Source: Escherichia phage vB_Eco_Lzu_P3
Sequence record: PQ295796
Reading direction: 5' to 3' (one strand)
Length of the DNA stretch: 44,829 bases
Shown here: piece after piece, positions 1 to 44,829 of the stretch
Numbering within the stretch: the first letter of the stretch is position 1
Layout: each line of letters starts with the position of its first letter
Notes under the pieces: model-generated
The model's database searches: none
Seen by the model: the letters and a program-made list of their open reading frames with translations, nothing else
Told to the model about the DNA's origin: nothing
Program-made: the position numbers and the translations under genes

Positions 1-127
1 CCCGCTTCGTTATGCGGGGTTCTGTCGCGCCATTTCGTCCAGCGCAACGCGTTCCATTAGCTTGATATCTTTAAACGCACGTTGCGCGTTTTCGATTCCG
101 TGCATCTTAAATAACCATTCCAGTACG
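1..127. repeat. Terminal duplication: 1..127 is identical to 44703..44829 (probable circular-assembly overlap)
   Basis: Compared directly: the window begins cccgcttcgttatgcgg… and ends …ccattccagtacg, both present at each end. 127 bp is a common maximum assembler k-mer size. Confidence 0.8.
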
Positions 128-333
128 CCGTAGTCTATGCCGTATGCCCCGCCAAATCCGGTACGCCACTGCGTGGAGCAATCTGAGAAGACTGCGACTA
201 CCTTAGCGTTGTCGGGCCACAGCGCAACGGGCGGACACACGTCTTCAGGTGTCGCACCCCATAAACTCGCGGCTAAATCTTCTGAGGGTGGCGGCGGGCC
301 ATAAAAGCGCCGCGCCGCCTCAATTAGTTTTTT
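10..333 (-). CDS. Tail assembly chaperone, T-frame extension reached by -1 frameshift from the G frame (GT fusion product)
   Basis: I translated the -1 frame by hand: it is open from the slippery heptamer A_AAA_AAC (minus strand, + coords 327..333) through the ORF-track ORF 10..240 with no stop. Position directly upstream of the tape-measure gene on the circular map matches the lambda G/GT arrangement. Confidence 0.5.
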   Translation of the reverse strand, partial: KKLIEAARRFYGPPPPSEDLAASLWGATPEDVCPPVALWPDNAKVVAVFSDCSTQWRTGFGGAYGIDYGVLEWLFKMHGIENAQRAFKDIKLMERVALDEMARQNPA

Positions 334-686
334 TCACGCAACCCCATCAATTCGAGGTAGTACGACGTATGGAACACGCCGAACGCGCGCGGGTAGTTGA
401 CTACCAGGCGGCGGACGTTGGTAGCATTAAATTCGTCCGGCAAATTCCAGCCTTCAGCGACGTGCATGATGGCCTCGACCATAACGTTAAATCCTTCCGG
501 GTCATTGTCGTCATACTCCGACAATTTGCGCTCAGTGTCCTGCATGGTCTGCGAAAATTCGTCGATAGGGCGGTGGCGCACGGTAAACGTCATTTTGCCC
601 GGTTCGTTCTCACCAGGGCGCGGGATCTCAATCGGCAGCTTAAAGGTAGGTTTAGGGTCAAGTGTGAAGAGTGGTGATTTAGCCAT
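324..686 (-). CDS. Tail assembly chaperone (lambda gpG-like)
   Basis: 120-aa ORF immediately downstream of the major tail protein gene. Start moved to ATG at 686, which has a GGAGAA RBS 7 nt upstream. Ends in ...GLREKN* with the slippery site at its 3' end. Confidence 0.6.
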   Translation of the reverse strand: MAKSPLFTLDPKPTFKLPIEIPRPGENEPGKMTFTVRHRPIDEFSQTMQDTERKLSEYDDNDPEGFNVMVEAIMHVAEGWNLPDEFNATNVRRLVVNYPRAFGVFHTSYYLELMGLREKN

Positions 687-701
687 TATGTAATTCTCCA
701 A

Positions 702-725
702 TAAAAAAGGGGCCGTACTGGCCCC
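702..725 (-). terminator. Intrinsic terminator (GGGGCC-gtact-GGCCCC plus U-tract on minus strand)
   Basis: Perfect 6-bp GC stem followed on the minus strand by TTTTTT. Lies after the major tail gene. Confidence 0.55.
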
Positions 726-755
726 ATATTAACACCCGCTATTTAAGCGACCAAA

Positions 756-1481
756 TTACGACAGCGCCTCGACCAAGTCCTTACGGTAAATAACCATATC
801 GGACTGCATAGTGAGGGTGGACTCCACCGTCTCCACGTTGTTTACTTCAGCAGACGGAATCTTCCGGAAAGACACCTTAGCCGGGTAAATGCGGATCTCA
901 CCTTTGCCGCTTGCCGCTGCCGGGTTGGTGAACTTAATCACAGTGGTTTTCTGTGTGTCGTCCAGGTCTTCCAGAATCGGGCGGATCGGGTCTTCTTCGT
1001 CGTGGGTGAAAGTGTAGGTCTGGACCAACGGGTTTTTCGTGGTGTTCAGACTGATCGCGGTATTCACCTGCAACGGCTGGAAGGTGGTGGTCTGCTGGTC
1101 GCCACCCGACACGGCAACGTTAGTGATAAACGGGAAGTCGATAAAGCTCGACACCTTCACCACCTCACCAGGTGTGCCTACGCCGAAAGCACCGGTCGGG
1201 TATTTGGTGACGTCTTGAGTATCGAAGCGCGCCAGCGTCACGTCGTTAGTATCCACTTTACCCACGATAAACGCGCGGTTAAGCGCACGTACCCACGGGG
1301 TTTTAGTGAACATAACCACGTCCCCCACAGCAAGACCATGCGACGCCGCGCAGGTGATAACGCATCCTTGCGTAAGATCGGAGATTGACGCCGCGGCGTT
1401 GGTCGCTGCCGTAACTGCGATGCCTGCACCCAATACGGACCCAATCTGCACGCTGGACCCGTTAGGAAGTTGATAACCCAT
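756..1481 (-). CDS. Major tail (tube) protein
   Basis: 241-aa ORF with AGGAG RBS, sitting between head-tail joining genes and the chaperone pair. Followed by an intrinsic terminator, typical of a highly expressed tail tube gene. Confidence 0.6.
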   Translation of the reverse strand: MGYQLPNGSSVQIGSVLGAGIAVTAATNAAASISDLTQGCVITCAASHGLAVGDVVMFTKTPWVRALNRAFIVGKVDTNDVTLARFDTQDVTKYPTGAFGVGTPGEVVKVSSFIDFPFITNVAVSGGDQQTTTFQPLQVNTAISLNTTKNPLVQTYTFTHDEEDPIRPILEDLDDTQKTTVIKFTNPAAASGKGEIRIYPAKVSFRKIPSAEVNNVETVESTLTMQSDMVIYRKDLVEALS

Positions 1482-16513: not shown

Positions 16514-16668
16514 TATTAATCATGCGCATGAAAAAGTCGATCGCTATCTGCTGTGACTGCAAACTGCATTTTCCGCCCACCATTCAGCAACTCGCATTGG
16601 TTGCCTAGTTCAGTGACGACCGCAATCCGCAACATGCTGCCGTGTATTTTGCAATCCCGGATTTTATG

Positions 16669-16838
16669 CAGTCTCAGACGAGGGGGGCCATCGACCCCCG
16701 TCTAGTCTGAAAGACTGGGGGTTGTCCCGCCTGTCCCGCTCCCCTCCAGGCCGCGTCATCCGGGGGTGGGACGGGGTGCTGTCCCGCTTTGTCCCGCCCC
16801 TGGTCTGTCCCGCTTTTTGTCCCGCTTACTTTATGCAG
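16669..16838. repeat. Iteron element A: 70-bp GC-rich hairpin block plus six direct TGTCCCGC iterons, then an A+T-rich segment with TTATGCAG boxes
   Basis: Read directly. 16669..16738 matches 44397..44466 with one mismatch. TGTCCCGC starts at 16723, 16732, 16780, 16790, 16806 and 16818. Confidence 0.85.
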
Positions 16839-16931: not shown

Positions 16932-19196
16932 TTAATCTTTCAGGTCATCATCGGTCGCCGAAAGCGTGATGGGGATATCCGATTTGATGACTAAATTCGA
17001 CGACCCATATATGGCCCCGGTGTGCGGATCTGTATAGAAACCAATCACGCCGCGCTCGACCATATCGTCGATTGCCTTCGTCGAAGTGCCACCCTTAGCG
17101 AGTCCCGCCTGGCGGACGATTGCCGATTTACTGAAACCAGTATGGTCCGGGTTATCTTCCATCAGTTTTTCCAGGGCCGCATAAAGCACTTTCTCTTTTT
17201 CGGTGCGCGGACCGGCGGCGTTTTCTTCCTTAACTGCGGCTTTTCCTGCGGCCTTCGCTTGTTCTATAGCGAACGGAGCCAGGGCGACCGGTACGAGGTA
17301 GAGAGTCTCGTCGCGTGGCGTGGATGCAATTGGCTTGACGTCCCAACCGGCAACCACATCCCCGAAGTCTGGCCCGGTGCTGGTGGACTGGTGCGACGCG
17401 AATGCCTCAGACTTGCGTAGATCAACCTTAACTTTGCACTTGAGCAGGACGAAGCCACGCGGCGCTTGCTTGATGCCGTTACGTGATTTTTCGTGGTACA
17501 GGTTCAATTGTCCGGGCTGGTTGTCGTCCGGCTGTTCCAGGAAGAAAGCAGAATCGACAGCACCATGCAGCGCGCCGGACCCGCGTGGCGTTCTGCTGCC
17601 GTTTGCCCCTTTCGCCGGGTGGTGGATGACGCCCGCACTGCCGCCTGTATTTTCCGCGATGGCTTTCAGCGCTTTGACAACTTCACCCATATCGCTGGCG
17701 TTGTTCTCGTCGAACGGTTTAGCATCGGCGGACCGCAACGCAACAGTCTGGTTGAGTGAGTCGAACGCCACCAGGCCGACCGGCTCGCCGTTAGCAGTGC
17801 GGTTGATATAGCTGATAACTTCGCGCAAACCGGACTTGCTGGTGATATCCCATCCGCGTGACTGCAGATCGATAATGTGCAGCTTGTCGAGGTCGTGCTC
17901 GTATTTAATCTGCAATGCTTCTTTGCGCTGGTTAGAGGCTTCACCACCTTCCGCGTCGAAATAGAAGCAATGAGACTGGACGACCTTCGCACCACCAAAC
18001 GGAATACCGGCGGCAACCGCACCCATCTGCCCAAGCACATAGAAAGACTTACCGATATTCGACTCACCCGCCATATACCAGGTCGATTTAAAGTTAATCA
18101 GACCTTCGATGATCGGGTCGTGCTTACTGAACAGCGCAACCGGCTCGTTATCCAGATCCGCATCGGTGCACACGCCATATTCTTCGCCGTCGCCCACCGC
18201 ATCAACAATGTGATCATATAAGGATTCGACTTCCTCGTCGTCCAGACCTGGCAGGATGGCGGCGATTTGCTTACGCGACATGTTGTGCGGCTCGACGTTC
18301 AGGTGGTCCGGTATCCCGATAAGACGTAGCGCCAGGTGCTGGTGTCTATTTAGCTCCGAGCAACACTCGTTGCCGGTGTGCATACACTTGAAACGGATCT
18401 CGCCATCCTTGACCATGATAGCCGTCGACCCTTCTCCGCTGTGCAGATGTTCGTTCGGGCACGGCACTTCATAACCGCGACCGGAAGATAACTCCTCGAA
18501 TCCTGCCTGGAAGCACCAGTCCAGAATCCCGTCCGCCACTGCGTCGTCGCCCTGGGTAAGCTCGCGGCGTACTTCCTCCTTCTCCACCCCCAGCTTATCC
18601 GCCAGGCGAAGCAGACGACGCACATTAGCGCGCTTGCCGTAGTGGCACTTAATGACAGACTGCTGGTGTGGCAGGTACATAAGACGGTTTGTGTCTTTCG
18701 TGCAATCGTCGAAGTCAACATCCGACAGACCAAGTTGGTCTAACAGCGCGTACTGCACGCGGCCCAGGTCTTCCGCCGGGACAGGCTTGTCAGTGAGTAC
18801 CAGGAAGCGAGCGCAACGCGTGCCGCCTTTCAGTGGGTGACGGTCGCCGGTTGTGGTGTGGAATACGTGCTCCAGCCCCGCGTCTATAAAAGCCTTACGG
18901 CAGCGGCGTAGGGTGCGGGTGTCGGTACGGTCGATATCGAAGAACAGGATCGAGCGGTCCACCGCACTGGTCTTACGACGTAAGCCGTCACTGGTATATG
19001 CCACGATGCCATCGGCCTTACGCTTGCGGCGTGCATACTCGGCTTTATCTTCCGTCTTGTTGATATGCACCGAGGAGATTTCTTTCGCGTCATTGATAAA
19101 TTCGAAAAATTCATCGGTGGTCATCTGGAAGTTTTCCGCCCTGGCTTTTTCGCCTTTTTTAGCGGGTTTTGTTACAGCGAATTTAATTAAGCTCAT
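16932..19196 (-). CDS. DNA primase-helicase with C-terminal putative DNA-binding domain
   Basis: 754 aa. N-terminal primase-like region, a Cys/His cluster (CPNEHLH…CMHTGNECC) and a P-loop (GESNIGKS) in a RecA-like ATPase region. C-terminal segment is winged-helix-like. Confidence 0.7.
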   Translation of the reverse strand: MSLIKFAVTKPAKKGEKARAENFQMTTDEFFEFINDAKEISSVHINKTEDKAEYARRKRKADGIVAYTSDGLRRKTSAVDRSILFFDIDRTDTRTLRRCRKAFIDAGLEHVFHTTTGDRHPLKGGTRCARFLVLTDKPVPAEDLGRVQYALLDQLGLSDVDFDDCTKDTNRLMYLPHQQSVIKCHYGKRANVRRLLRLADKLGVEKEEVRRELTQGDDAVADGILDWCFQAGFEELSSGRGYEVPCPNEHLHSGEGSTAIMVKDGEIRFKCMHTGNECCSELNRHQHLALRLIGIPDHLNVEPHNMSRKQIAAILPGLDDEEVESLYDHIVDAVGDGEEYGVCTDADLDNEPVALFSKHDPIIEGLINFKSTWYMAGESNIGKSFYVLGQMGAVAAGIPFGGAKVVQSHCFYFDAEGGEASNQRKEALQIKYEHDLDKLHIIDLQSRGWDITSKSGLREVISYINRTANGEPVGLVAFDSLNQTVALRSADAKPFDENNASDMGEVVKALKAIAENTGGSAGVIHHPAKGANGSRTPRGSGALHGAVDSAFFLEQPDDNQPGQLNLYHEKSRNGIKQAPRGFVLLKCKVKVDLRKSEAFASHQSTSTGPDFGDVVAGWDVKPIASTPRDETLYLVPVALAPFAIEQAKAAGKAAVKEENAAGPRTEKEKVLYAALEKLMEDNPDHTGFSKSAIVRQAGLAKGGTSTKAIDDMVERGVIGFYTDPHTGAIYGSSNLVIKSDIPITLSATDDDLKD

Positions 19197-41685: not shown

Positions 41686-44328
41686 TCATCGTTTGTAAAG
41701 TACACCACCCGGTTTCGTCGCTTTCACGATCTCGGCCTTCACCGCCTCGGTGATTTGCTTGCCGAACGCCTGCGCTGTACGGGGGTCTGGGCCGCTCACA
41801 CTGGTGTCTGTTTTACCGGACCCAGTGTAAACGTTAGTCGTCACGACCATACCACCGCCTGCACCCGACGCGGCAACGCCAAGTTTCCCGTCCGGCCCGC
41901 GCTTCAGTGGCATGATGGCCTCGGGTCCAGCCTCACCCATCAATCCTGCGCCCTTAGCGAACGCCTGAACGCCATAACTGAAAAAGGTAGGCTGGCTTAC
42001 CACTTTCCCCGAATAGGCCGCCAGATTGCCTCCTGCGTACGCTCCGCCGTCCGCATTCTTAGTCAGGCCAGAGAAGATAGCGCCGAACAATCCGTTTTTG
42101 CCGCCGTCGCCACCGAAAGCGCTAACGATGGACTTGAATGCCTGCGAGGTGGCCAGCTTGATTAGTTCGCTCAGGATGGATTTAACCATATCCTTTGCGT
42201 TCAGCTTGCCAGTCTCGAAAAACTCGTTCATCGTGTCCTGCATAGCGCTGAACGTGAATTTTGTGAGAGACGTCATCTGCGTATAGCCGTTACCCATTTC
42301 ATCCACGCTATCCTTAAGCCCGCGACTGAAGCCATCCCATAGCGAGGCGTTAGCACCGGTCTGTGCTTCCTGCACTTCGCGCAGCTTAGACACCGCCTTG
42401 TCGATATCCGTATCGTTAGCGCCAACCCGCTTCAGGCGGTCAATTAGCTGCAATTCTTCCCGTAGGTTTGCCGCTTCGCGAGTGGAAAGCGCATAGCCCG
42501 CGGCGGTGGCTTTTAGTTCGGCGTTCTGATTCTTAACGAAGGCATCGATCTGCGCGTGCGCCTTAACCTGCTTCTCTTTCGCGTCCAGCAATTTGGCTTC
42601 TTCGACGATCTGCTCGCGCACTTCCTTCACGCGTCCGAATTCGGCCATCTGCTGCTTTTCGGCTGCCGTTAGTGCTCTTTCTTTGCTCGCAGCGATTAAC
42701 TGCTCATTGTCGGCGATCAGCTTGTTTAGGGCCGCTTGCGCGCGTTGCGTGCGGGTCTGCATAGACGCGTTGGCTTCGATCTGCTTGCCGGATTCTCGAA
42801 GCTGGGCCAGTTCGCTCCGTGCGACTTCCAGCATTTTCATACCGGCATCCACGCGAACAGCCGCGGCCTTCTTCGGGGCCGGGTCTTTGTAACGCTCGTT
42901 TACCTGCTTAACCGCCTCAGCAAGCTCTTTCTCGTCAATAACGCCGCGCTTATTCAGCAAATTGAGGCGGGCGATCTCGTCTGCGCGCTTCTTCGCGTTG
43001 GTTGCGTACTCCTTCTCGAACGCAGCGCGGTCGCGGGCGGTGCGGTTAGCCTCCTCGTTCGCCTTTGCGGATTCGTCTGCGGATCGGGCGTTGTCTCGCT
43101 CCGCACGGTTACGCAAGGTGAGCGACGCCACTACCTTTTCCTGGGCGACCAGTTCGCTATAAAGCATGTTAATACGTGCTTTCTGCGCTTCGGTCATCAC
43201 TCCACCGGCAGCGTTTACCGCTTTCATCTCGGCATAGTAAGCCGTTGTCATGCGCTGGAGTGATTCGCGCGCTTTCATCTCCGACTCATTGGAGGACTGC
43301 GCGCGGCCCACATCCAGGATAGCGTCCCACATAGATTTAGCCGCCGATGTGACGACGTTCATCGACCGCTCAAGCGTGCCCATGTTCGCCTTGATATCGT
43401 TGGTCATAGTGGTGAACGATGCCGCGGCGGTTTTGTTCGCCAGCGCAACTGCGTCTGTCTCACGACCCATATCCACAAGCGACTGCACCTGCTGGATCTG
43501 CGCTTCGTTTACGACGTGATACTTATCTGCCAGTGCGCGCAAACCGCCTACGGGGTCAGTTGACAGCTTCGCCACCGCCGCGACCACATCTTCGACCGGC
43601 TGGCTGGACACCTTAGAGAAGTCATTAACCACCTTCGCCAGTGCACCGAAGTCAGCACCCGCCTTCACACCCGCCGCCGCCAGTGCCTGAATTGTGTCAC
43701 GCGTCTTGCGGAATGATCCGCCCATCCGCTCGGCGTTCTCGGATAGCACCAGGATCTGGTTAGCGGTGAGGCCAGAAATATTACCGGACAGCGCCAGCGT
43801 CTTGTTAAGCGCCGCCACTTGGTTTTCCGCGCGGGACATAATAGACACGCCAACGCCCATCGTTGCCGTTAATGCCGCGATGCCGATCCCTAACGGGCCG
43901 AGTGTGCCGACGACATAACGCAGCGTATTCCCCAACCCGCCAAACGCCCCCGTAAGCTGTGGTAACTGCTGAAGCATGACTCGATGCACCGGCATACCCA
44001 TTTCAAGCGTCACCGCGATATCCTGTAACTGGAATGCGGCGTTCCGCGATGCGAATCCCAGGTTTTTGGTCGACATGCCTAATCGGCTGGCGAGTCGCTC
44101 CTGTTTCGTCATGCCGTCGGCGGCCCGATGCGATTCAGTCGCTAACTTTTCCATCCCGCCAGCGGCGTCACCCGTGACCTTTTTCGTGTTGCCGAGGGTG
44201 TCGTTTAATTTTTTAGCTTTCCATTCCGCAGTCTCGGACTTCTGGGAAAATGAGTCCAGCGCGGTATTTGCCGTTTTGACTTGCGTGGCATCGACCTTTA
44301 GTGTGATGCCTGCTGCTTGATCTGCCAT
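41686..44328 (-). CDS. Tail tape measure protein
   Basis: 880 aa, largely alpha-helical/coiled-coil composition with Gly-rich segments, in the position upstream of M-L-K-I-J. Confidence 0.8.
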   Translation of the reverse strand: MADQAAGITLKVDATQVKTANTALDSFSQKSETAEWKAKKLNDTLGNTKKVTGDAAGGMEKLATESHRAADGMTKQERLASRLGMSTKNLGFASRNAAFQLQDIAVTLEMGMPVHRVMLQQLPQLTGAFGGLGNTLRYVVGTLGPLGIGIAALTATMGVGVSIMSRAENQVAALNKTLALSGNISGLTANQILVLSENAERMGGSFRKTRDTIQALAAAGVKAGADFGALAKVVNDFSKVSSQPVEDVVAAVAKLSTDPVGGLRALADKYHVVNEAQIQQVQSLVDMGRETDAVALANKTAAASFTTMTNDIKANMGTLERSMNVVTSAAKSMWDAILDVGRAQSSNESEMKARESLQRMTTAYYAEMKAVNAAGGVMTEAQKARINMLYSELVAQEKVVASLTLRNRAERDNARSADESAKANEEANRTARDRAAFEKEYATNAKKRADEIARLNLLNKRGVIDEKELAEAVKQVNERYKDPAPKKAAAVRVDAGMKMLEVARSELAQLRESGKQIEANASMQTRTQRAQAALNKLIADNEQLIAASKERALTAAEKQQMAEFGRVKEVREQIVEEAKLLDAKEKQVKAHAQIDAFVKNQNAELKATAAGYALSTREAANLREELQLIDRLKRVGANDTDIDKAVSKLREVQEAQTGANASLWDGFSRGLKDSVDEMGNGYTQMTSLTKFTFSAMQDTMNEFFETGKLNAKDMVKSILSELIKLATSQAFKSIVSAFGGDGGKNGLFGAIFSGLTKNADGGAYAGGNLAAYSGKVVSQPTFFSYGVQAFAKGAGLMGEAGPEAIMPLKRGPDGKLGVAASGAGGGMVVTTNVYTGSGKTDTSVSGPDPRTAQAFGKQITEAVKAEIVKATKPGGVLYKR

Positions 44329-44396
44329 TATGCAGTCCCCTTTTCTATGCAGTTGCCGTCGTTCATTGTATCAGCGAATTTACAACAAACCTTATT

Positions 44397-44711
44397 CAGT
44401 CTCAGACGAGGGGGGCCATTGACCCCCGTCTAGTCTGAAAGACTGGGGGTTGTCCCGCCTGTCCCGATCGGCTAAAACCCGCGGCAGCACTGACGGGGAC
44501 GGGGTGCTGTCCCGCTTTGTCCCGCCTCATTCTGTCCCGCTTTCTGTCCCGTTTGTATTATGCAGAAAAACCGCATAGCTATTCACTTTTAAGGGGCGGG
44601 GCAGATCGGGACAGCACCCCGTCCCGCTTTTAGTTTATGCAATGAAAGTGAGTATATATGCGGTTTAATGGTGGCGGGACAAAACGGGACGTCACGTTTT
44701 GTCCCGCTTCG
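44397..44711. repeat. Iteron element B: paralog of element A with at least eight direct and three inverted TGTCCCGC-type iterons and A+T-rich TTATGCAG/TTATGCGG boxes
   Basis: Direct copies start at 44451, 44460 (degenerate), 44508, 44518, 44533, 44545 (degenerate), 44620 (cGTCCCGC) and 44700. Inverted GCGGGACA-type copies are near 44606, 44674 and 44685. Confidence 0.85.
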
Positions 44712-44829
44712 TTATGCGGGGTTCTGTCGCGCCATTTCGTCCAGCGCAACGCGTTCCATTAGCTTGATATCTTTAAACGCACGTTGCGCGTTTTCGATTC
44801 CGTGCATCTTAAATAACCATTCCAGTACG

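What the first reader, a model, noticed from the sequence alone, without database searches (positions are those of the whole stretch)
324..340. Canonical A_AAA_AAC -1 frameshift site joining tail chaperone G and T frames
On the minus strand, the last codons of the G-like ORF read GAA AAA AAC TAA. The heptamer A AAA AAC (+ coords 327..333) is a classic X_XXY_YYZ slippery sequence. I translated the -1 frame by hand: it is open from the slip site (…KK-LIEAARRFYGPPPPSEDLAASLWGATPED-MCPPVALWPDN…) to the stop at 10..12, giving a GT fusion. The conserved G/GT frameshift of long-tailed phages is established knowledge.
Basis: partly seen in the sequence, partly recalled or inferred. Interest (0 to 1): 0.5.

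Follow-up and report, generated by a model that had tools for sequence, protein, structure and literature searches.

The report
Phage tail chaperone G/GT frameshift site
This is the usual programmed -1 ribosomal frameshift that lets a long-tailed phage make a short and a long tail-assembly chaperone from one gene pair; it is real and well conserved, but it is an ordinary, already understood kind of feature.

Summary
On the minus strand, gene G (686..324, 120 aa, Pfam Phage_TAC_4) ends CGT GAA AAA AAC TAA. The -1 frame is closed by TGA at 336..334, then open from 333 to TAA at 12..10, and encodes a DUF1799 domain. The two open frames overlap by exactly the 7 nt of A_AAA_AAC (333..327), the only in-frame X_XXY_YYZ in G.

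The window is a whole Dhillonvirus (HK578-like) genome. G and T lie between the major tail gene and the tape-measure gene.

I retrieved 87 loci using the T domain alone. All 76 distinct junctions carry a slippery heptamer at the frame switch: A_AAA_AAC or G_GGA_AAC directly before the stop in 70, and A_AAA_AAC or A_AAA_AAA with a later stop in 6.

The 86 nt between the slip site and the first possible start codon evolve as T-frame coding sequence (7/0/18 substitutions by codon position). A GC-rich hairpin 7 nt downstream is position-specific across lineages.

T1-like phage Tls has the same cassette, annotated as a joined CDS. None of the eight Dhillonvirus records I inspected annotates it.

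Verdict: interpretation supported; a new member of a known kind; low interest.

The parts
324..686 (-). Gene G, tail assembly chaperone: 120 aa plus TAA stop at 326..324.
   Evidence: Translation. Pfam Phage_TAC_4 E 5.8e-23, above the curated cut-off. RBS GGAG at 699..696 lies 9 nt before ATG 686.
327..333 (-). Slippery heptamer A_AAA_AAC, the only place where a -1 shift can join the G and T frames.
   Evidence: [quoted passage not shown]
324..326 (-). 0-frame stop codon TAA directly abutting the heptamer. It is a likely pausing element, placing a slow-to-decode codon in the A site.
   Evidence: A stop directly follows the heptamer in 35 of 39 sequence clusters. A functional role is inferred.
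334..336 (-). TGA in the -1 (T) frame that closes that frame upstream, so the frames overlap by 7 nt only.
10..333 (-). T-frame segment: -1 frame, 105 aa after the shift, TAA at 12..10. The GT fusion is join(686..327, 327..10), 225 aa.
   Evidence: Translations. Pfam DUF1799 E 3.7e-21. Substitutions in the start-less 86 nt after the heptamer fall 7/0/18 on T-frame codon positions 1/2/3.
284..321 (-). Candidate stimulatory hairpin. The core 7-bp stem is GGCGGCG (319..313) paired with CGCCGCC (296..290), with a 16-nt loop, starting 7 nt after the heptamer. An extended form is GAGG...CCUC.
   Evidence: MFE -22.7 kcal/mol, better than all local control windows. All Dhillonvirus variation falls outside the 7-bp stem. 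The dip in folding energy is position-specific across 37 clusters. Arm changes are compensatory in a sub-family.
342..345 (-). GGGG, a possible Shine-Dalgarno-like element 8 nt upstream of the heptamer. Weak evidence.
   Evidence: Family-wide peak of anti-SD complementarity 12-14 nt upstream of the heptamer start. The third G varies within Dhillonvirus.
703..725 (-). Intrinsic-terminator-like hairpin plus T6, between the major tail gene and G.
756..1481 (-). Major tail (tube) protein gene, immediately upstream of G.
   Evidence: Pfam Phage_tail_3 E 1e-32; phrog_584 major tail protein.
41686..44328 (-). Tape-measure protein gene. It is next downstream of T across the circular junction, after a ~380-nt repeat-rich spacer.
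   Evidence: Pfam TMP_2 E 5e-43 and Tape_meas_lam_C. Same order in Kenya-K19.

Best explanation
A programmed -1 ribosomal frameshift at A_AAA_AAC (333..327, minus strand) makes two tail assembly chaperones from one translation start.

Most ribosomes read GAA AAA AAC and terminate at TAA, giving G (120 aa). A minority slip back one base: tRNA-Lys moves from AAA to AAA and tRNA-Asn from AAC to AAA. This happens either in tandem or after translocation, while the slow stop codon sits in the A site. These ribosomes continue with CUA AUU GAG..., giving GT (225 aa, junction ...REKN-LIEAARR...), whose C-terminal part is a DUF1799 'T' domain.

The GC-rich hairpin 7 nt downstream probably raises slippage, and a G-rich stretch upstream may add to it.

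By analogy with lambda G/GT, the G parts coat the tape-measure protein and the T domain recruits the major tail protein. The slip frequency would then fix the G:GT ratio.

Shown here: the frames, the site, the domain families, gene order, coding-type evolution of the start-less T segment, family-wide conservation of the site, and enrichment of the hairpin. Inferred: the shift itself, its efficiency, the role of the stop codon and hairpin, and the protein functions.
For: - Sequence and frames.
- G is Phage_TAC_4 and T is DUF1799. phrog_17368 (213 positions) matches G over its first half and T over its last third.
- Gene order is major tail, G, T, tape measure.
- Relatives at 57% G identity (L019, L021) and a very distant high-GC contig with a different tube family (L022) all read ..A AAA AAC TGA/TAA, followed by KKLIEAARR... 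in the -1 frame.
- T-domain-only retrieval gave 76 distinct junctions: 57 AAAAAAC+stop, 13 GGGAAAC+stop, 2 AAAAAAC with the stop one codon later, and 4 A_AAA_AAA with a later stop.
- In 19 Dhillonvirus sequences, the 86 nt between the site and GTG 240 carry 7/0/18 changes on T-frame codon positions 1/2/3. GTG 240 is ATT (Ile) in L016 and L019, so no start codon is conserved.
- The 70-nt cassette is at least 95% identical in 136 of 157 phage records. The surrounding 1.5 kb reaches that level in only 12 of 158.
- Hairpin evidence.
- Tls (T1-like) has GTA AAA AAC TAA with a hairpin 7 nt downstream. It is annotated as a joined CDS, tfmS, and its tfmA is Phage_TAC_4.
- Literature: AAAAAAC next to the stop was proposed as the chaperone shift site in phage Loki (PMC5313236). 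T1-like Stevie has a 'conserved translational frameshift' (PMC4319613). An A_AAA_AAC insertion-sequence cluster is listed as a proven case of frameshifting (PMC4066793). [quoted passage not shown]
Against: - There are no protein data for this phage or, as far as I found, for any member of this chaperone family.
- A_AAA_AAC is much less shift-prone in E. coli than A_AAA_AAG (PMC5009743). That fits a low GT level but does not prove one.
- The hairpin stem is invariant within Dhillonvirus, so there is no covariation there. It also encodes conserved EAA...PPP residues, so protein constraint could explain part of its conservation.
- Only 21 of 39 clusters show a hairpin that stands out locally.
- None of the eight Dhillonvirus GenBank records inspected annotates a shift.
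Confidence: 0.9

Rival explanations
1. T is a separate gene. It would be translated by its own initiation, or by termination-reinitiation at the UAAUU overlap (ATT at 324..322, as annotated for gp16 of Sodalis phage SO-1), or from GTG at 240 (as annotated in Kenya-K19). No fusion protein would be made.
For: Public records annotate T that way: SO-1 gp16 starts on the last base of the G stop, and Kenya-K19 starts at the GTG. ATT is invariant within Dhillonvirus.
Against: - ATT is a very rare start codon. That codon is ATC, AAA, AAG, ACC or GAG in relatives, including AAA in Tls, so no start is conserved.
- GTG 240 is ATT (Ile) in L016 and L019.
- No SD precedes GTG 240.
- The 31 codons upstream of GTG evolve as coding sequence.
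- This model does not explain why a slippery heptamer sits exactly at the frame junction in 76/76 junctions.
- Annotated T starts disagree among eight records, or T is missing altogether.
Confidence: 0.05
2. The fusion arises mainly from transcriptional slippage. RNA polymerase would add one A in the run of seven A (334..328), giving mRNA that reads GAA AAA AAA CUA... and a GT with junction ...EKK-LIEAARR.
For: The window has an A7 run. An inserted A would give the T frame. Four related lineages have A8.
Against: From my own knowledge, productive slippage in bacteria usually needs runs of about 8-9 or more. Among 37 clusters, 16 have only A6 and 11 have GGGAAAC (A3), which cannot support polymerase slippage but fits X_XXY_YYZ tRNA re-pairing. 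The adjacent stop and the hairpin 7 nt downstream fit ribosomal signals.
Confidence: 0.04
3. The heptamer and the open -1 frame are coincidental or vestigial, and only G is functional.
For: No direct protein evidence exists.
Against: The T frame shows purifying selection: 20/10/75 changes by codon position in the domain and 7/0/18 in the linker. It matches a curated Pfam family. The whole arrangement is conserved from enterobacterial phages to high-GC proteobacterial prophages.
Confidence: 0.01

Closest known systems
Tape measure chaperones tfmA/tfmS of T1-like phages (Drexlerviridae), e.g. phage Tls, GenBank AY308796
   Same: - Same protein families: tfmA is Phage_TAC_4, and the T part matches the window's T at 34% identity.
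- Same gene order.
- Same site, GTA AAA AAC TAA, with the stop abutting the heptamer.
- A hairpin (GGCGGUUU/AAACCGCC) 7 nt downstream.
- Annotated as a joined, frameshifted CDS.
   Different: - A different phage group (Dhillonvirus).
- T is only about 35% identical.
- Hairpin arm sequences differ.
- A ~380-nt repeat-rich spacer separates T from the tape-measure gene here.
- None of the eight Dhillonvirus records inspected annotates the shift.
Phage lambda G/GT (Levin, Hendrix & Casjens 1993; Xu, Hendrix & Duda 2004, 2013, 2014)
   Same: [quoted passage not shown] It gives a short chaperone and a C-terminally extended one. The heptamer is of X_XXY_YYZ type (PMC5009743).
   Different: - Lambda uses G_GGA_AAG, several codons before the G stop (my recollection of the lambda sequence, not checked here).
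- Here the site is A_AAA_AAC directly abutting the stop, with a clear downstream hairpin.
- The G and T domains belong to other Pfam families than lambda's.
E. coli dnaX -1 frameshift signal (SD-like element, A_AAA_AAG, 3' stem-loop)
   Same: A lysine-codon-rich heptamer, a stem-loop a few nucleotides downstream, and possibly a G-rich SD-like element upstream.
   Different: The A-site codon is AAC (Asn), not AAG, so efficiency should be far lower than the high efficiency of dnaX. The 0-frame stop abuts the site. The SD-like element is only weakly supported, and it lies closer (about 8 nt) than in dnaX.
Acinetobacter phage Loki gp12/gp13 (PMC5313236) and insertion-sequence A_AAA_AAC frameshifting (PMC4066793)
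   Same: [quoted passage not shown] PMC4066793 lists an A_AAA_AAC insertion-sequence cluster as a proven case of frameshifting. From my own knowledge this is IS1 insA-insB'.
   Different: Loki's case is also only predicted, and its homology to the window's G and T was not tested here. The insertion-sequence case is an unrelated gene system and has no established stimulator.

Membership tests
Conserved G/GT tail assembly chaperone frameshift of long-tailed phages (Xu, Hendrix & Duda 2004) | Two overlapping ORFs located between the major tail protein gene and the tape-measure gene. | tested here: met
   Major tail 756..1481, G 686..324, T 333..10, and tape measure 44328..41686 across the circular junction. 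Same order in Kenya-K19.
Conserved G/GT tail assembly chaperone frameshift of long-tailed phages (Xu, Hendrix & Duda 2004) | The downstream ORF is in another frame, lacks its own conserved start or RBS, and is coding right from the overlap. | tested here: met
   The -1 frame is open from 333. The first canonical start is GTG 240, which is not conserved. The 86 nt in between carry 7/0/18 changes by T-frame codon position.
Conserved G/GT tail assembly chaperone frameshift of long-tailed phages (Xu, Hendrix & Duda 2004) | A slippery sequence lies in the overlap and is conserved among diverged relatives. | tested here: met
   A_AAA_AAC at 333..327. [quoted passage not shown]
Conserved G/GT tail assembly chaperone frameshift of long-tailed phages (Xu, Hendrix & Duda 2004) | Both G and GT proteins are made at a fixed low GT:G ratio, are required for tail assembly, and are absent from virions. 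| not testable with these tools
   Needs western blot or mass spectrometry, and genetics.
Pfam PF08748 Phage_TAC_4 (G part) | Whole-protein score above the curated gathering cut-off. | tested here: met
   81.9 bits against a cut-off of 21.1, full-length match 1-120.
Pfam PF08809 DUF1799 (T part) | Whole-protein score above the curated gathering cut-off. | tested here: met
   75.6 bits against a cut-off of 26, profile positions 1-80 of 80.
Canonical -1 PRF signal (X_XXY_YYZ plus a 3' structure 5-9 nt downstream) | A heptamer that allows re-pairing of two tRNAs in the -1 frame. | tested here: met
   A_AAA_AAC in the G frame.
Canonical -1 PRF signal (X_XXY_YYZ plus a 3' structure 5-9 nt downstream) | A stable downstream stem-loop or pseudoknot at the right distance, supported by conservation or covariation. 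| tested here: met
   - A 7-bp GC stem starts 7 nt after the heptamer, and its MFE beats all local control windows.
- The family-wide energy dip at +0..+8 reaches z -1.8.
- In a sub-family, 72 of 81 cells are paired against 22-55 of 81 with slid partners, with CG<->UA exchanges.
- Caveats: the stem is invariant within Dhillonvirus, and only 21 of 39 clusters stand out.
dnaX-type three-element signal | An SD-like element about 10 nt upstream of the heptamer. | tested here: inconclusive
   Anti-SD complementarity peaks (mean -5 kcal/mol against -1.1 overall) for windows starting 12-14 nt upstream. This could instead reflect conserved Gly/Ala codons. In the window the element is GGGG at 345..342, 8 nt upstream, and its third G varies.
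dnaX-type three-element signal | A_AAG in the A-site half of the heptamer. | tested here: not met
   The A-site codon is AAC in the window and in 72 of 76 junctions.
Programmed transcriptional slippage | A long homopolymer run (usually 8-9 or more A/T), conserved among relatives. | tested here: not met
   The run is A7 here. Among the other clusters, 16 have A6 and 11 have GGGAAAC.

The most novel reading that the evidence does not exclude
The whole Phage_TAC_4/DUF1799 chaperone family, from T1-like and Dhillonvirus coliphages to high-GC proteobacterial prophages, may share one fixed recoding cassette. It would consist of a G-rich element about 8 nt upstream, X_XXA_AAC, a 0-frame stop codon directly abutting the heptamer, and a hairpin about 7 nt downstream. 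In this reading the stop codon is a working part: slippage of the E/P-site tRNAs would compete with release-factor action at an occupied stop. The G:GT ratio would then be set by termination kinetics rather than by the heptamer alone.
Probability: 0.3. Interest if true: 0.4.

Novelty: new member of a known kind. Interest (0 to 1): 0.2.

Why it matters
Practically, it corrects the annotation of a whole phage genus. In the eight Dhillonvirus records inspected, T is missing, truncated to 31-76 aa, given an ATT start, or called on the wrong strand. G and T are also often mislabelled 'tail length tape measure protein' through PHROG names.

For recoding research it adds a large, clean comparative set of 76 distinct junctions. 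This set shows a nearly invariant 'X_XXA_AAC + stop + hairpin' arrangement, which could be used to test how an adjacent stop codon and a weak A-site codon tune low-level frameshifting in bacteria.

It does not change what is known about tail assembly.

Tried and rejected
- The protein homology search with the GT fusion returned only 3 proteins, so I gathered relatives through DNA-level retrieval instead.
- RNAalifold on the ungapped alignment of 28 cassettes gave no consensus structure. The 3' arms lie at different distances in different lineages. I replaced this with per-sequence folding against local control windows, an offset profile, and a hand-gapped sub-family pair count.
- The first MFE register of the window hairpin (GAGG...CCUC with inner pairs) is contradicted by Dhillonvirus variation at G13, R24, C48 and U49. 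The 7-bp GGCGGCG/CGCCGCC register fits all variants.
- Rfam shows no known RNA family at 1..1000, only sub-threshold chance hits.
- PDB sequence search found no solved relative of GT.
- NCBIfam has no model for G or T.
- Literature searches for a Dhillonvirus frameshift and for DUF1799 found no description of this site.
- I did not run structure prediction, because the allowed alignment would be too shallow to be informative.

Full report
**Observation.** Read on the minus strand, window 338..324 is CGT GAA AAA AAC TAA.
- The ORF ending there starts at ATG 686, with GGAG 9 nt upstream, and encodes 120 aa. The ORF listing reports it from an upstream TTG at 701.
- The -1 frame contains TGA at 336..334. 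It is then open for 107 codons to TAA at 12..10.
- The only stretch where both frames are open is therefore 333..327, which is exactly the heptamer A_AAA_AAC.
- It is the only in-frame X_XXY_YYZ in the gene.
- Two corrections: GTG 240 would be an internal Val in a fusion, and the expected junction is ...REKN-LIEAARR..., with Asn decoded before the slip.

**What the region is.** The window is a complete genome of about 44.7 kb, with 127 nt duplicated at its ends.
- It belongs to Dhillonvirus (HK578-like siphophages). 158 phage records match the first 1.5 kb at 80-97% identity.
- The minus strand carries a standard head-to-tail module: major capsid, adaptor, head closure, neck, tail terminator and major tail protein (756..1481, Phage_tail_3). 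G and the -1 frame ORF follow.
- G is Pfam Phage_TAC_4 (E 6e-23) and the -1 frame part is DUF1799 (E 4e-21).
- PHROG 17368, a 213-position profile, matches G with its first half and T with its last third. This suggests fused sequences of this type already exist in that family.
- The tape-measure gene (41686..44328; TMP_2 and Tape_meas_lam_C) follows across the circular junction, after about 380 nt of repeat-rich spacer.

**Evidence from moderately distant relatives.** The protein search returned little, but its three hits led to informative contigs.
- Two phages with 57-58% G identity read GAA AAA AAC TGA and GAA AAA AAC TAA.
- A very distant high-GC contig, with a different tube-protein family, reads AGA AAA AAC TGA.
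- In all three the -1 frame continues KKLIEAARR/KKLIEAVSR....

**Unbiased family survey.** I built an alignment of the T domain only, starting 34 residues after the slip site, so that retrieval would not depend on the site. I used it to fetch 80 viral and 7 genomic loci.
- Of 76 distinct G/T junctions, 57 end AAAAAAC+stop and 13 end GGGAAAC+stop.
- Two have AAAAAAC followed by one codon and then a stop.
- Four use A_AAA_AAA with the G stop eight codons later.
- A contig cut within G (L037) also shows AAAAAAC TGA.
- No junction lacks a heptamer.

**Evidence that the T frame is translated from the slip site.** I compared 19 distinct Dhillonvirus sequences.
- In the body of G, substitutions fall 15/11/113 on G-frame codon positions 1/2/3.
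- In the 86 nt between the heptamer and GTG 240, they fall 7/0/18 on T-frame positions.
- In the T domain they fall 20/10/75.
- The stretch with no start codon is therefore coding, in the T frame.
- GTG 240 is ATT (Ile) in L016 and L019. The ATG that a gene caller used in L019 is TTA here.
- Public Dhillonvirus records disagree on T: absent in three, 76 aa from GTG in one, 31-38 aa fragments in three (one of which also carries an opposite-strand call), and an ATT start on the G stop in SO-1. This is the usual symptom of an unrecognised frameshift.

**Stimulatory elements: the hairpin in this window.** Seven nucleotides after the heptamer, GGCGGCG (319..313) can pair with CGCCGCC (296..290).
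- The 45-55 nt after the site fold to -22.7 kcal/mol. That is better than every control window within 700 nt.
- Against shuffles, z is -1.8 to -2.4.
- Within Dhillonvirus, all variable positions in this stretch fall outside the 7-bp stem. Its five third-codon positions never change, although third positions elsewhere change about once per codon (my count from that alignment).
- The 70-nt cassette is at least 95% identical in 136 of 157 records. Only 12 of 158 reach that level for the flanking 1.5 kb.

**Stimulatory elements: the hairpin across the family.**
- Across 37 sequence clusters, mean folding energy shows a sharp dip only for windows starting 0-8 nt after the heptamer (z -1.8).
- 21 of 39 clusters rank in the best 10% of local windows, where about 4 would be expected.
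- Arm sequences differ between lineages while staying complementary. Examples are GGCGGCG/CGCCGCC, CGCUGUUA/UAACAGCG, CCGCCGCUG/CGGCGGCGG and ACGCAGCCAG/CUGGCUGCGU.
- In a sub-family aligned with one 3-nt gap, 72 of 81 cells pair, against 22-55 with slid partners, and CG<->UA exchanges occur.
- A downstream hairpin is thus a common, though not universal, part of the signal.

**Other possible elements.**
- A peak of anti-Shine-Dalgarno complementarity lies 12-14 nt upstream. In the window this is GGGG at 345..342. It could equally reflect conserved Gly/Ala codons, so I leave it open.
- The 0-frame stop follows the heptamer directly in 35 of 39 clusters. This suggests, but does not show, that pausing at the stop contributes.

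**Rival: separate initiation or reinitiation of T.** No start codon is conserved: the codon after Leu is ATT, ATC, AAA, AAG, ACC or GAG across lineages. This model also leaves the universal heptamer unexplained.

**Rival: transcriptional slippage.** The window has an A7 run, so a small contribution is possible. However, 16 clusters have only A6 and 11 have GGGAAAC, which only fits tRNA re-pairing.

**Comparison with what is known.**
- The closest known case is the tfmA/tfmS 'tape measure chaperone' pair of T1-like phages.
- In Tls, tfmA is Phage_TAC_4 and the T part is a homologue of the window's T. The site is GTA AAA AAC TAA with a hairpin 7 nt downstream, and GenBank gives a joined CDS.
- The announcement of T1-like phage Stevie mentions the conserved frameshift (PMC4319613).
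- For Acinetobacter phage Loki, AAAAAAC adjacent to the stop was proposed as the shift site (PMC5313236).
- PMC4066793 lists an A_AAA_AAC insertion-sequence cluster as a proven case of frameshifting. From my own knowledge this is IS1.
- A_AAA_AAC is much weaker than A_AAA_AAG in E. coli. The lambda G:GT ratio is 30:1, which suits a weak site (PMC5009743).
- I found no paper or record that describes the shift for Dhillonvirus (and the eight records).

**Verdict.** It is a new, unannotated member of a well-known kind. It is useful for annotation and as comparative material on weak heptamers next to stop codons, but not surprising. Interest 0.2.

Noticed in passing
window 1..127 and 44703..44829: The two ends of the window are an exact 127-nt direct repeat. 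It is therefore a circular or terminally redundant whole phage genome opened inside the T gene, and the 3' end of T appears twice.
   Followed up: yes
window 44390..44710 and 16660..16825 (minus strand): - The 8-mer GCGGGACA has 17 exact copies, against about 1.4 expected. Six lie in each of two short non-coding stretches.
- Both stretches share a ~170-nt module that ends in CCCCCAGTCTTTCAGACTAGACGGGGGTC(A/G)ATGGCCCCCCTCGTCTGAGACTG.
- One copy lies between T and the tape-measure gene. The other follows the 754-aa ORF 16932..19196.
- The Sodalis phage SO-1 record annotates the first as repeat 'region A', similar to a 'region B'.
- Relative L021 has a different repeated word (GGTGCCA) at the same place.
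- This is likely a protein-binding array or regulatory module. Its function is unknown.
   Followed up: partly
window 703..725 (minus strand): An intrinsic-terminator-like hairpin, GGGGCCAGTACGGCCCC plus T6, lies between the major tail gene and G. It could lower expression of G/GT relative to the tube protein.
   Followed up: no
public Dhillonvirus records (loci L001-L003, L112-L116): T is annotated inconsistently: absent, as 31-76 aa fragments, with an ATT start, or accompanied by an opposite-strand call. G and T are often named 'tail length tape measure protein'. This name appears to come from the PHROG labels of phrog_569 and phrog_680, which are chaperone families rather than tape measures.
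   Followed up: partly
loci L054, L056, L059, L087: One lineage of the same T family uses A_AAA_AAA (an A8 run), with the G-frame stop eight codons downstream rather than abutting the site. It shows no outstanding downstream hairpin. This is the subgroup where transcriptional slippage is most plausible.
   Followed up: partly
12-14 nt upstream of the heptamer in 37 clusters; window 342..345: There is a position-specific peak of complementarity to the 16S anti-Shine-Dalgarno sequence just upstream of the slip site across the family. The mean is -5 kcal/mol, against -1.1 overall. It may be a dnaX-like upstream stimulator or simply conserved Gly/Ala codons.
   Followed up: partly
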